A stretch of DNA of 32,000 nucleotides, from contig JAUIDC010000001.1 in NCBI GenBank assembly GCA_030429145.1, positions 240,001-272,000 on the forward strand, read 5' to 3'. Shown here in pieces: positions 21,119 through 24,100 of this stretch (position 1 is the stretch's first letter; each line of letters opens with the position of its first letter). Both the position numbers and the translations under genes were made by a program. The DNA comes from Candidatus Saccharimonadota bacterium. GTDB lineage: Bacteria; Patescibacteriota; Gracilibacteria; Absconditabacterales; Absconditicoccaceae. The notes under the pieces are model-generated. The model worked only from the letters and a program-made list of their open reading frames with translations. It was not told the DNA's origin and did no database searches.

Positions 21119-24100
21119 CTATTTCACAATAAAGTTAACTATCTTATCTTGCACAAAAATAATCTTCACTATCTCTTTACCCTCAAACTGACTACTAAAT
21201 CTCTCGTCTGCCTTCACCAACGCCACTACTTCATCCTGCGAAATTCCCGCAGCAACCTCTATCGTCCCTTTCATTTTACCATTTATCTGCACTGGTAGAT
21301 TGATAGTATCTTCTGCTATCTTATCTGGATCAAATGTCGGCCACTTAGAGAAATGAATATCTCACTCATTGCCAAGTTTTTCCCGCATCTCGGATGATAA
21401 TTTCGTAGCGAATGGAGCGAGAAGTTGTAGAAAGGTTGAGAATTGTTGTTTTGTGATAGATTTTTTATCGTACAGTTCATTTACAAAAACCATAAGCTTT
21501 GATACGGCAGTATTGAATTTCACTCTTTCAATATCTTCTGTCACTCACTTGATAGTTTTATGTAATACCGGATCGATCTCTTTGCCATCCTCTGAGATAA
21601 ACTGCTCTGCTCTTTCGACTCTTTCTATAAACTTTTTTACCCCGCTCAGTGCATTCGGATTCCATATTTTTTCCTGCTCAATTGGACCCATGAACATAGT
21701 ATATGTTCTTGCAGTATCTGAACCAACCTCGTCTACAACCTCACTTGGATTGATAACGTTGCCTCGACGCTTGGACATTTTACGACCATCTGGCCCCAAA
21801 ACAAACCCCTGATGAAACAACTTTGCAAATGGCTCACTGTTACCAATATATCCTTGATCGTAGAGAAACTTATTAATAAAGCGAGAGTACAAAAGATGTC
21901 CATAAGTATGTTCCTTTCCACCAATATAGAAATCCACTGGCAATGTTTTATCAGCCAGATCTTTGCTCAATAGCTCTTTATCATTATGTGGATCAATAAA
22001 ACGCAAGAAATAGAACGCACTATCCATAAACGTATCGAGAGTGTCGCATTCGCGGAGATATGTTGGCTGAGGATTATACTCATTGAAGCGATCGATATAG
22101 GCGGGAGCTTTTACCTCCCTGCCCTCTAAGAGCTCAAGAACATACAAAAGATCAGGGTCTGTGGTCACTTTTTTTACATTATTAATATTCATCCATAGAG
22201 GCTCATGTTTTGCTTTCTCCTCTTCGGAAATTCCAGAGAATCAATCATAAGCTTCGACTAAGTAATATTTATTTATTGTATAATGATTTTCTTTCTTCAA
22301 TGCATGATAGAACTTTCTATGTATCTCTCCCCCTATCTGTTCCTTAATTTCTATATTCATTATTCCTGTTTCTTCACGAATTTCACGCTTCACAGCATCT
22401 TCCCGACTCTCATCTCATTCCAAACCACCAGAAGGAAATGTATAAGACCCATCTATACTCCGCTTTAACAAAGCGATCTCTCAAGTCTTTGCATGACGAA
22501 CAATTCCGTGTACTACATTTCTTCTTCTAACGTCATATTCTTTTTTATAGCCTCGCACCTCATCTGTATACTCAAAAAATGGCACCTTATAATTTTCTGG
22601 CTTATAGTGTGGAAATGTCGGATGATCTGCCAATGGAGATTTCCCGGCTGGTTTATAATCTTTTACGTCTAGCGGCAGAACCACTGGAAGTTCATCTTCT
22701 GGGATCACATGAGGAATCCACTTTGCCTTGTCTGGGTGTGGATTGTAAGCATTATACCTCTCTGTTGTCTGCTTTATTCATGAGTCACCCTTTAACAATC
22801 GATTCATAGCAAAGATACTAGTATCATTTCTTGTTGTTTTTATGAACTCCTCAGCACTCATCCAGACAATTTCATGGAGTTTTTTTGCTTCCTCATCAGT
22901 AGGTTCAGCCTGCTTTGAGCGATCTACTTCAAAATAGAGAAGATGATTAATACTATATTGATTTCTGTGTTTTGTAGGATGGTAGAATTGAACATGATAC
23001 TCTCATAATTCTTTCACAAGTTCTGCATCAGCAAAACCTCACTCCTCAAGTAATTCACGTTTTGCTGCCTCTATAGCATCTTCTCACTCAGTACCTCAAA
23101 AAAATGTCGTTACGTCACCATCATGAGCCCACTTCAAGAAGCAATACTCGTCACCACTTTTATCTTTCACTATACATTGAATTACCTGTCTTGGAGTCAC
23201 GGGCTCGCCAGGCTTAAATGCCTTATTTCCCTCTGCGTACATAAAGAACGGCACCTGCTCTTCACTATCAAATGTGTAATAGAACGGAATCGGGCACCCC
23301 CAATAACGTTGACGAGAAATCGACCAGTCGCGAAGTTTATATGTTGTTTTTCTACGACCGAGTCATTGCTCTTCAAGATATGTAGTTATTTTAGACTTTG
23401 CTTCTTCATTTGTGATGTCATTAAAATCCCCCGAATTAATAAGAACTCACGCACCAGTATTACATACTCCTCCCTCAAATGACTCATCATGAATCACTTG
23501 TTTGATAGGTAGGTCATGTGCCTTAGCAAATTTCCAATCTCTCTCATCATGAGCAGGCACAAACATTACTGCGCCAGTTGCATAATCAGGCAGGACATAA
23601 TCTGCATACCACACTGGCACTTGTTCTCCAGTTAATGGATGTTTTGCATAGACACCTGAAAACATTCCTGACTTCTCCTCAGCATCCTGCTGTCTCTCAA
23701 GTGCTGTTTTCTTACCTGTCGCTTTACGATACTCCTCAAGCTTCGCCTTATTTTCTGGAGAAAGCAGCACATCAATAGACTCATTTTCCGGTGCCAGCAT
23801 AATAGCTGTCACCCCATAGATGGTATCAGGACGAGTGGTGAATACGGTTATTTTAGGTTCTATCAAATCTACCACTTCAGGGATTTGTTTGTTTTTTTCA
23901 GAATATCCTTCCGTAAAGTGGCCTCTGTCAGGAACTTCTATCAGAGTTGCTTGAAGTTCTTCTAGATAGATCCTTGAACTCTCTATGATAAGAGGCTCAT
24001 CGTTTGAGAGCAAAACAAAAATACCATCCGAAACTCTTTTGCTGAGACTTTTATCAATCTCAAATTCATTAAACTCTTTCCTATCATCATAATGAGCAAC

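What the first reader, a model, noticed from the sequence alone, without database searches (positions are those of the whole stretch)
22061..22599. Second, fully canonical Nudix domain inserted before the ECDTLDTF segment of LeuRS
Seen: ...[60 protein letters not shown]... matches GX5EX7REUXEEXGU exactly. It is flanked by the LeuRS segments HPTFPHYKP and [17 protein letters not shown], which are about 12 residues apart in E. coli. Two separate Nudix insertions bracket the short conserved [11 protein letters not shown] strand. That argues for stepwise domain accretion rather than one mobile cassette.
Basis: partly seen in the sequence, partly recalled or inferred. Interest (0 to 1): 0.75.

Follow-up and report, generated by a model that had tools for sequence, protein, structure and literature searches.

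The report
Second Nudix enzyme domain inside LeuRS
The essential enzyme that loads leucine onto tRNA carries here a real, probably active second Nudix hydrolase domain spliced into a surface loop, one case of a widespread, apparently undescribed habit of small-genome (CPR) bacteria of embedding small hydrolases in this enzyme.

Summary
On the minus strand, read with UGA = Gly (code 25), window 22064-22603 encodes a ~178-aa Nudix domain. It passes Pfam's NUDIX threshold and contains the only strict GX5EX7REUXEEXGU match in the window. It sits in frame inside a 1,523-aa LeuRS (21122-25690) whose catalytic and editing motifs are intact.

It replaces a 6-residue loop (TAKDGK in the closest insert-free relatives). 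In canonical LeuRS that loop is the second CxxC zinc knuckle. Nudix 1 sits at the first knuckle of the same zinc site.

The two modules are paralogues: 33% identical, with shared linkers. They belong to one Nudix family that occurs as free-standing genes and at four sites in LeuRS of Patescibacteria. The editing-domain site is very common; site 2 is rare (five cases, at least three independent).

Catalytic residues are kept in 78 of 82 modules. The nearest characterised relatives are Ap4A/ApnA hydrolases and RppH. There is no intein, intron or pseudogene signal.

Best reading: an autonomous, active pyrophosphohydrolase passenger domain that arose by duplication of the site-1 module. Its substrate is unproven; Ap4A-type by-products are the leading guess. 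I found no literature describing this architecture.

The parts
21122..25690 (-). Complete LeuRS gene (1,523 codons from the first ATG; stop TAG at 21119-21121). It contains 21 UGA=Gly codons and four inserted domains.
   Evidence: Pfam finds tRNA-synt_1, the LeuRS editing domain PF13603 and Anticodon_1. HIGH, KMSKR, TTRPDT and AHDERD are present.
22064..22603 (-). Nudix 2 insert (residues 1030-1209), the finding. The module includes its N-linker [12 protein letters not shown] and its C-linker RFNEYNPQP. It replaces the 6-residue loop TAKDGK of insert-free relatives.
22160..22510 (-). Core of Nudix 2 matched by Pfam PF00293 (residues 1061-1177).
   Evidence: positions 6-123 of the 134-position profile.
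22361..22429 (-). Nudix box of Nudix 2, [23 protein letters not shown]. It matches GX5EX7REUXEEXGU exactly; one UGA=Gly lies in the X5 part (22415-22417).
22280..22333 (-). X-loop region after the box ([18 protein letters not shown]). It carries the family-conserved aromatic pair at +17/+18 and the K-x-x-N-x-Y motif.
   Evidence: PMC5389931.
22604..22717 (-). Native LeuRS strand between the two Nudix modules ([38 protein letters not shown]). It is 87-89% identical to the insert-free relatives L021 and L005.
22718..23275 (-). Nudix 1 insert (residues 806-991) at the position of the first CxxC knuckle. It is a paralogue of Nudix 2.
22028..22063 (-). [12 protein letters not shown], the LeuRS segment that resumes immediately after Nudix 2.
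23891..25015 (-). Two alpha/beta-hydrolase (Ser_hydrolase/YdeN-like) modules inserted ahead of the editing domain of the same LeuRS. Given as context, not as the finding.
   Evidence: PF06821, 64.9-70.9 bits, 2 stretches.

Best explanation
Window 22064-22603 (minus strand, UGA=Gly) encodes a real, translated Nudix pyrophosphohydrolase domain. It stays in the mature LeuRS as an in-frame passenger on a surface loop. In canonical bacterial LeuRS that loop is the second CxxC knuckle of the C439/C442/C484/C487 zinc site; this clade has lost the four cysteines. Nudix 1 sits at the first knuckle, so the two modules should lie next to each other on the folded enzyme (inferred). Nudix 2 arose from a site-1-type module of the same family, most likely by intragenic duplication that carried the site-1 linker (YNxYNPxP) along (inferred from similarity and trees). 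The family is a distinct Nudix clade of Patescibacteria. It exists as free-standing ~160-180-aa genes and has been embedded in LeuRS many times, at four sites. Because the metal-binding and catalytic Nudix-box residues are kept in almost all copies, the domain most likely works as an autonomous Mg2+-dependent hydrolase while LeuRS aminoacylates and edits normally. The most likely substrates are adenine-containing dinucleoside polyphosphates (Ap4A/ApnN, which aaRS active sites make as by-products) or related NTP/NDP-X 'house-cleaning' substrates. This last step is a guess from nearest neighbours, not shown. Rough sub-confidences: real retained domain 0.95; catalytically active 0.8; derived from a site-1-type module 0.7; ApnA-type substrate 0.3.
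For: The ORF is continuous with UGA on conserved Gly codons. Pfam NUDIX is above threshold and the box matches exactly. The LeuRS motifs are intact. Exact junctions against insert-free L021/L005 are defined. The insertion points map onto the two CxxC knuckles of T. thermophilus LeuRS 1H3N. N1 versus N2 is 33% identical, E 3e-28, with shared linkers. In the module trees, window s2 + L019 s2 are sister to the main site-1 clade. L019 and L001 independently show the same 1+2 architecture, so it is not an assembly artefact. Of 82 modules, 78 keep [RK]ExxEE, and +17 is aromatic in 70 of 78. Free-standing family genes exist. The nearest solved relatives by sequence are the Ap4A hydrolases 3I7U and 1F3Y, RppH and 2AZW. 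By structure, using a pLDDT 93.7 model of family member P0121, they are 2AZW, CT771, aq_158, RppH and MutT1/Rv2985. aaRS make Ap3-5N, and Nudix enzymes are the asymmetric Ap4A hydrolases (PMC7705103). Other LeuRS carry Ham1/ITPase, HAD or nucleotidyltransferase inserts alongside Nudix, a nucleotide-hydrolase theme. Codon usage and GC of the insert equal those of the host, and the insert contains UGA=Gly codons.
Against: There is no biochemical or expression data. No NCBIfam equivalog threshold is reached; the best hit is RppH at 38 bits against a cut-off of 118, so substrate class is not established. The best structural and profile hit (2AZW) is itself uncharacterised. The structural evidence comes from a family member only 22-30% identical to the site-2 modules, because the window's protein could not be modelled. 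Support for the duplication node is modest (bootstrap 55-67). Window N2 is only 34-36% identical to L019 N2, while the scaffolds are 68% identical. Close relatives lack the insert and some copies decay (L021 remnant, P0009). So the domain is dispensable and need not be mechanistically tied to LeuRS. LeuRS is not known as a strong Ap4A producer (my own knowledge; not verified here).
Confidence: 0.55

Rival explanations
1. Neutral or semi-selfish passenger. LeuRS surface loops in these lineages simply tolerate in-frame capture of small genes. The Nudix works, or decays, independently of LeuRS, and the fusion only supplies constitutive expression. There is no functional coupling with leucylation.
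For: Unrelated enzymes occupy the same sites in relatives: PD-(D/E)XK (L002, L011), Ser_hydrolase, ANT(2'')-like nucleotidyltransferase, Ham1 and HAD. Presence or absence is decoupled from the scaffold tree, and the 77%-identical L021 has no inserts. Decayed remnants exist (L021 site E, P0009). Free-standing homologues exist.
Against: The same Nudix family recurs at four sites, in both code-11 and code-25 lineages, in about 84 of the top 150 representative clusters, with up to three copies per protein and conserved catalytic residues. That is more than expected from random capture. This rival overlaps with the best explanation; it differs only on coupling.
Confidence: 0.25
2. Non-catalytic structural or RNA-binding role. 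The paired Nudix folds replace the lost zinc module as a scaffold, or bind tRNA or nucleotides as a regulatory sensor, as the inactive Nudix protein CFIm25 does.
For: The modules sit exactly where the four zinc-binding cysteines were lost. Inactive Nudix proteins that bind Ap4A or RNA are known (PMC7705103).
Against: Insert-free relatives (P0022, L021, L005, L013) also lack the cysteines and need no replacement. The catalytic Glu and Arg residues are kept in 78 of 82 modules, including all five site-2 modules, with conservative changes in L020.
Confidence: 0.1
3. Dedicated proofreading or detoxification accessory of LeuRS. In this reading the Nudix hydrolyses misactivated aminoacyl-adenylates, adenylate-mimic antibiotics, or a modified tRNA 3' end.
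For: All four insertion sites cluster around the editing domain and its linkers. The Nudix co-occurs with esterase-type alpha/beta-hydrolases in the same LeuRS (window; L019; L069).
Against: Aminoacyl-adenylates are acyl-phosphates, not the NDP-X pyrophosphates typical of Nudix substrates (general knowledge). No homology points to such an activity. The insert is dispensable in close relatives.
Confidence: 0.07
4. Not part of the protein: an intein-like or intron-like element that is removed, or a LeuRS pseudogene or misassembly broken by stop codons.
For: Under the standard bacterial code the gene is interrupted by 21 TGA codons.
Against: All interruptions are TGA, they fall on conserved Gly positions, and the whole window behaves the same way. 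Pfam finds no Hint/intein domain. The junctions lack the Cys/Ser...His-Asn signature (sequence). No Rfam intron lies in 20500-26500. There are no flanking repeats. Codon usage equals the host's. The same architecture is found in two independent genomes.
Confidence: 0.03

Closest known systems
Nudix 'asymmetrical' diadenosine-polyphosphate hydrolases and RppH (Aquifex aq_158/3I7U, Chlamydia CT771/4MPO, lupin 1F3Y, Mycobacterium MutT1/Rv2985, E. coli RppH/NudH)
   Same: Canonical Nudix box. Aromatic residue in the X-loop about 17 residues after the box. These are the best characterised sequence matches (E 1.6e-8 for Nudix 2 against 3I7U; profile search). They are also the best characterised structural matches for the family member P0121 (TM 0.6-0.8).
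   Different: Identity is only about 20-25%, and no equivalog model threshold is reached. The family has its own conserved K-x-x-N-x-Y motif. It is embedded in a 1,523-aa synthetase instead of being a 130-170-aa stand-alone enzyme. Substrate is untested.
Uncharacterised MutT/nudix family protein of Enterococcus faecalis (PDB 2AZW)
   Same: Best hit of the family profile (2.1e-10) and best structural match (TM 0.78/0.84).
   Different: It is a free-standing protein with no known function, so it gives no functional transfer.
Bacterial-type LeuRS with CP1 editing domain and a CxxC...CxxC zinc site (T. thermophilus 1H3N/2BYT; E. coli 4AQ7)
   Same: All catalytic, editing and anticodon-binding parts align. 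HIGH, KMSK(R), TTRPDT and AHD are present.
   Different: The four Cys of the second zinc site are lost, and each knuckle loop carries a ~175-aa Nudix domain. Two alpha/beta-hydrolases precede CP1. About 740 of the 1,523 residues are inserts.
Patescibacterial LeuRS with a Nudix inside the editing domain (e.g. KKP58971.1, Candidatus Moranbacteria, 957 aa; annotated only as LeuRS)
   Same: Same Nudix family and the same host enzyme. It is common in public data.
   Different: The insertion point is inside CP1, not at the zinc-knuckle loops. There is usually a single copy, and the standard genetic code is used. I found no literature describing it.
Double MutT/Nudix-domain proteins formed by duplication-fusion (Lin et al. 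2009, cited in PMC5389931)
   Same: Two paralogous Nudix domains in one polypeptide, arising by duplication.
   Different: There the domains are in tandem in a dedicated Nudix protein. Here they sit in two separate loops of an unrelated essential enzyme.
Accessory-domain accretion in eukaryotic aaRS (GST, WHEP, EMAPII, UNE domains; my own knowledge)
   Same: A synthetase acquires extra domains not needed for aminoacylation.
   Different: Those are mostly terminal appendages fixed across large clades. Here the additions are internal loop insertions of enzymes that come and go between close relatives.

Membership tests
Nudix hydrolase superfamily (Pfam PF00293) | Profile score above Pfam's gathering threshold | tested here: met
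   46.8 bits against a threshold of 21.1 for the isolated Nudix-2 segment. The site-2 modules of L001 and L003 are also above threshold.
Nudix hydrolase superfamily (Pfam PF00293) | Nudix box GX5EX7REUXEEXGU with the metal-binding Glu residues | tested here: met
   [23 protein letters not shown] is an exact match and is unique in the window; 5e-6 are expected by chance.
Nudix hydrolase superfamily (Pfam PF00293) | Alpha/beta/alpha sandwich Nudix fold | tested here: inconclusive
Family member P0121 folds as Nudix with pLDDT 93.7 and matches Nudix structures.
Nudix hydrolase superfamily (Pfam PF00293) | Mg2+/Mn2+-dependent pyrophosphohydrolase activity | not testable with these tools
   Activity is only inferred from conservation of the catalytic residues in 78 of 82 modules.
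ApnA (diadenosine polyphosphate) Nudix hydrolases | Tyr or other aromatic residue in the X-loop about 16-18 residues after the box (Dunn 1999, via PMC5389931) | tested here: met
   F17-Y18 in Nudix 2. Position +17 is F, Y or W in 70 of 78 modules. This is a weak, non-exclusive criterion.
ApnA (diadenosine polyphosphate) Nudix hydrolases | Membership of a curated equivalog, or close homology to a characterised enzyme | tested here: not met
   All NCBIfam hits lie far below their cut-offs. Identity to 3I7U and CT771 is about 23%. So it may work like an ApnA hydrolase, but it is not filed as one.
Bacterial leucyl-tRNA synthetase | Class I HIGH and KMSKS motifs, CP1 editing domain with the T-rich region and catalytic Asp, anticodon-binding domain | tested here: met
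   HIGH at residue 37, KMSKR at 1304, TTRPDT at 618, AHDERD at 713. Pfam finds PF00133, PF13603 and PF08264.
Intein | Hint domain; Cys/Ser at the insert's first residue; His-Asn at its end followed by Cys/Ser/Thr | tested here: not met
   No Hint or intein Pfam hit. The insert starts with K-P-E and ends with N-P-Q-P before T.
Group I/II intron or other RNA element | Match to an Rfam intron model; interruption of the reading frame | tested here: not met
   No Rfam hit in 20500-26500 at E<=1 apart from a spurious lncRNA match. The frame is continuous.
Genetic code 25 (UGA = Gly; Gracilibacteria/Absconditabacteria) | In-frame UGA at conserved Gly positions, with TAA/TAG as the only stops | tested here: met
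   The relatives are Absconditabacterales MAGs with 6-42 UGA codons in LeuRS.
Genetic code 25 (UGA = Gly; Gracilibacteria/Absconditabacteria) | tRNA-Gly with anticodon UCA | tested here: inconclusive
   The 32-kb window has no tRNA genes, so the feature is uninformative here.

The most novel reading that the evidence does not exclude
LeuRS of Patescibacteria is a dedicated platform for a LeuRS-specific Nudix family that destroys a nucleotide by-product of leucine activation (Ap4A/Ap4N or a related adenylylated compound) at its source. In the window's protein, the two paralogous modules at the two former zinc-knuckle loops pack into an intramolecular Nudix pseudo-dimer that replaces the zinc module. 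Together with the two esterase domains, this would make the enzyme a five-activity 'translation hygiene' machine.
Probability: 0.2. Interest if true: 0.85.

Novelty: new variant of a known kind. Interest (0 to 1): 0.68.

Why it matters
Aminoacyl-tRNA synthetases are among the most conserved enzymes. Large internal insertions of foreign catalytic domains are regarded as rare in bacteria. In this protein about half of LeuRS is inserted enzyme domains, and the comparative data show that this is not a one-off. One Nudix family has colonised LeuRS at four sites across Patescibacteria, with up to three copies per protein. Other nucleotide-handling or hydrolase domains (Ham1, HAD, nucleotidyltransferase, PD-(D/E)XK, esterases) use the same sites. 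That raises several testable questions. What do these hydrolases do, for example Ap4A turnover in organisms with minimal genomes? How do in-frame domain insertions arise and move between alleles? How does a class I synthetase tolerate ~175-aa domains at the loops of a lost zinc site? It also matters in practice: such genes are fragmented or mis-named by standard annotation. Under code 11 this one is fragmented at its UGA codons, and one 1,330-aa LeuRS is named 'RdgB/HAM1 family...'.

Tried and rejected
So the window's own Nudix 2, and the two-Nudix arrangement, could not be modelled. A family member (P0121) was modelled instead.
2. A word-indexed homology search with Nudix 2 alone found nothing. 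This is a weak negative, since code-25 genes are fragmented in the protein databases.
3. A metagenome scan with window-specific peptides found no close relative. A second scan with clade-wide patterns worked.
4. The exhaustive search profile (A4) unintentionally kept LeuRS columns, giving 427 positions. It therefore cannot answer whether this Nudix family is embedded in proteins other than LeuRS.
5. NCBIfam gave no equivalog.
6. The literature search for the second zinc site of LeuRS only returned work on the ZN1 domain. The one-zinc, four-Cys statement rests on the CxxC...CxxC pattern and my recollection of the Thermus structure paper.
7. Intein, intron, pseudogene and recent foreign acquisition were considered and rejected.
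8. dN/dS was not attempted. The closest site-2 module is only about 35% identical, so synonymous sites are saturated.
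Full report
OBSERVATION. The finding lies on the minus strand. Under the standard bacterial code the region is broken into fragments. One frame, however, runs from 25711 to 21119 with 21 in-frame TGA, no TAA or TAG, and a terminal TAG. The TGA codons fall on conserved glycines: the G of GWDSFGLP, the last G of a GxSxG nucleophile elbow, and the first G of the Nudix-1 box. Most long ORFs in the window also contain in-frame TGA. The 15 related genomic loci are Absconditabacterales-type MAGs with 6-42 TGA codons in LeuRS. The organism therefore uses code 25 (UGA = Gly).

Read that way, the gene (21122-25690) encodes a 1,523-aa LeuRS. HIGH, KMSKR, the editing-domain TTRPDT and AHDERD motifs, and the anticodon-binding domain are all present. 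Residues 1030-1209 (window 22064-22603) form the claimed second Nudix domain. It scores 46.8 bits against Pfam NUDIX (E 3.9e-12; threshold 21.1). The box [23 protein letters not shown] is the only strict GX5EX7REUXEEXGU match in all six frames. About 5e-6 matches are expected by chance, and 200 shuffles gave none.

EXACT ANATOMY. The closest LeuRS relatives (L021, 77% scaffold identity; L005, 75%) read [16 protein letters not shown][L/R]RECDTLDTF. The window reads [18 protein letters not shown]…[21 protein letters not shown]. So a ~178-aa block replaces a 6-residue loop.

Alignment with canonical LeuRS (P0028/P0030; T. thermophilus 1H3N) locates both inserts. Nudix 1 sits at the first CxxC knuckle (C439-C442 in Thermus) and Nudix 2 at the second (C484-C487). 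Those four cysteines form one zinc site. This is my recollection of the Thermus structure, supported by the CxxC…CxxC pattern. The two insertion points should therefore be only a few Å apart in the fold. The whole Absconditabacterales-type clade has lost these cysteines, whether or not inserts are present.

The same protein also carries two YdeN-like alpha/beta-hydrolase modules ahead of the editing domain. In total, 741 of the 1,523 residues are inserts.

NOT AN EXCISED ELEMENT OR ARTEFACT.
- No Hint/intein domain is found.
- The junction residues (K-P-E… …N-P-Q-P|T) lack the intein signature.
- No Rfam intron lies in 20500-26500.
- There are no flanking repeats.
- GC, GC3 and codon usage equal those of the host gene, and the insert itself contains three UGA=Gly codons.
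- Two independent genomes (L001; L019 on a 1.1-Mb contig) have Nudix modules at both knuckle sites.

RELATION BETWEEN THE TWO MODULES. Nudix 1 and Nudix 2 are 33% identical over 177 residues (E 3e-28). The similarity includes an N-terminal VPFFxY and a C-terminal R[FY]NxYNPxP linker. The [10 protein letters not shown] motif is part of the site-1 loop even in relatives that have no Nudix there (P0002, L003, L007, L009…). A copy of it at the end of Nudix 2 therefore points to a site-1-type module, linker included, being duplicated into site 2.

In neighbour-joining trees all embedded and free-standing modules form one clade against generic Nudix proteins (bootstrap 100). The main site-1 modules form a clade (99). 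Window s2 + L019 s2 (67) are its sister (55), and L001 s2 joins next. Support is modest and the modules are divergent: window s2 is 34-36% identical to L019 s2, whereas the scaffolds are 68% identical. At DNA level only the box-coding stretch is still faintly similar, so the duplication is old.

A WIDER PHENOMENON. A local HMM of the family, run on code-aware translations of 95 related loci, shows Nudix modules at four LeuRS sites:
- ahead of CP1 (L030, L065, P0130, P0133);
- inside the CP1 editing domain ('site E'; at least 52 standard-code and several code-25 loci);
- at knuckle 1;
- at knuckle 2.

In the exhaustive search, about 84 of the top 150 representative clusters are LeuRS with a Nudix contiguous with the editing domain. 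Named examples are Moranbacteria, Paceibacteria and 'Patescibacteria group' proteins annotated simply as LeuRS.

Site 2 is rare. I found five cases: the window, L019, L001, L003 and L020. They represent at least three independent insertions. L003's module lacks the YNxYNP tail and groups with free-standing P0121. L020 is a standard-code LeuRS of the RETNTMPQWAGS type, and its module groups with code-11 modules. Site 1 was colonised at least twice: the modules of L019 and L012 belong to another subfamily (bootstrap 99). Free-standing genes of the family exist (P0121-P0123), and P0122/P0123 nest within site-E modules (bootstrap 100).

LABILITY. The scaffold tree and segment-wise identities place the window next to the insert-free L021 and L005 in every scaffold segment. 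This includes the 38-aa strand between the two Nudix modules (87-89%). Meanwhile Nudix 1 is most like L002's (55%), and the first hydrolase is like L019's (65%). L021 retains what looks like a decayed remnant of a site-E Nudix, and P0009 has a degenerate site-1 module. Modules are thus gained, exchanged between alleles and lost on short time scales, and the insert is not essential for LeuRS function. The same sites host unrelated enzymes in relatives:
- PD-(D/E)XK (L002, L011) and Ser_hydrolase (L007);
- an ANT(2'')-like nucleotidyltransferase (L019, L007);
- Ham1/ITPase (P0140) and HAD (P0136).

FUNCTION. Of 82 modules, 78 keep the catalytic [RK]ExxEE core and 65 keep the strict box. The exceptions are fragments or visibly degenerate copies. 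All five site-2 modules keep the two catalytic glutamates. This argues for a catalytically active hydrolase rather than a structural filler.

Substrate class cannot be assigned by homology, because all NCBIfam hits are far below threshold. The nearest characterised relatives are consistent, though. By sequence they are Aquifex Ap4A hydrolase 3I7U (E 1.6e-8 for Nudix 2), lupin Ap4A hydrolase and RppH. By structure, using a pLDDT 93.7 model of family member P0121, they are CT771, aq_158, RppH and MutT1/Rv2985, after the uncharacterised 2AZW. The family has an aromatic residue at +17 after the box in 70 of 78 modules. That is the X-loop position where a Tyr correlates with ApnA hydrolases (PMC5389931). 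aaRS synthesise Ap3-5N as side products, and Nudix enzymes are the 'asymmetrical' Ap4A hydrolases (PMC7705103).

My best reading is therefore an autonomous Nudix pyrophosphohydrolase tethered to LeuRS, most plausibly acting on ApnA-type or other house-cleaning nucleotide substrates. The co-occurrence with Ham1, HAD and nucleotidyltransferase inserts fits a nucleotide-hygiene theme. It equally fits a view of LeuRS as a permissive carrier for small enzymes. I keep that 'passenger' reading as the main rival, and it overlaps with the best explanation.

COMPARISON AND NOVELTY. The parts are known: the Nudix superfamily, bacterial LeuRS, duplication-derived double-Nudix proteins, and aaRS domain accretion. 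Nudix domains embedded in LeuRS loops are not described in any paper I could find, although many such proteins sit in public databases under plain LeuRS names. The same goes for the paired insertion at the two former zinc knuckles. I rate it a new variant of a known kind.

LIMITS. There is no structure for the window's own protein and no expression or activity data. The trees are distance-based with moderate support. Whether this Nudix family is exclusive to LeuRS was not tested.

Noticed in passing
window 23891-25015 (-): Two alpha/beta-hydrolase (Ser_hydrolase/YdeN-like, PF06821) modules are inserted in the same LeuRS, between [10 protein letters not shown] and TTRPDT. The first is orthologous to a single copy in L019 (65% identity). 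A standard-code LeuRS (L069) carries Nudix plus a YdeN-like hydrolase together inside the editing domain.
   Followed up: partly
whole window; e.g. 6-1766 (-), 5746-7839 (-), 12778-13893 (+): The whole window uses UGA as a sense codon (code 25), so standard ORF calling fragments most genes. Within LeuRS, UGA-Gly is enriched in the inserted domains: 16 of 51 Gly codons against 5 of 48 in the core (Fisher p = 0.014).
   Followed up: partly
L001 (LeuRS residues 375-491, 602-771, 823-997); P0130: Some LeuRS carry three Nudix modules in one polypeptide. L001 has them in the editing domain and at both knuckle sites. P0130 has three NUDIX stretches.
   Followed up: partly
L002 and L011 (pre-CP1 site): A PD-(D/E)XK nuclease-superfamily domain (PDDEXK_3, up to 112 bits) is inserted in frame ahead of the LeuRS editing domain. 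A nuclease-like insert in an essential gene is reminiscent of homing elements, but no splicing signature was examined.
   Followed up: no
L019 LeuRS residues ~557-720; L007 equivalent: The ~160-aa insert inside the editing domain matches aminoglycoside-2''-adenylyltransferase-like nucleotidyltransferases (PF10706; 33.6 bits in L019, above threshold).
   Followed up: partly
P0140 (residues 984-1167) and P0136 (residues 654-808): Other patescibacterial LeuRS carry a Ham1/ITPase domain or a HAD hydrolase in addition to a Nudix. The P0140 cluster is auto-annotated in NCBI as 'RdgB/HAM1 family non-canonical purine NTP pyrophosphatase', although it is a 1,330-aa LeuRS.
   Followed up: partly
L021 LeuRS, editing-domain site: The window's closest relative has a ~45-aa stretch (…STGSDIVAAARFEKLSNGQRVF…). 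It looks like the decayed remnant of a site-E Nudix: compare L005 GEDIVAAGAREILEETGY.
   Followed up: no
window 19895-20521 (-) and 20529-21134 (-): Two tandem Sua5/YciO/YrdC-family genes lie immediately downstream of LeuRS on the same strand, and the first almost abuts the LeuRS stop. The second copy is much more divergent (47 bits against 131).
   Followed up: partly
window 18082-19632 (+): There is a GH3-family (acyl-acid amido synthetase-like) gene with all three GH3 Pfam domains. This is an unusual find in a Patescibacteria-type genome.
   Followed up: no
L016 1025-1573; L018 1854-2375; L099 82-558: Free-standing ~160-180-aa genes of the same Nudix family exist. P0122 and P0123 are 40-52% identical to the editing-domain modules of L005/L009/L015. 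This implies recent exchange between free-standing and embedded forms.
   Followed up: partly
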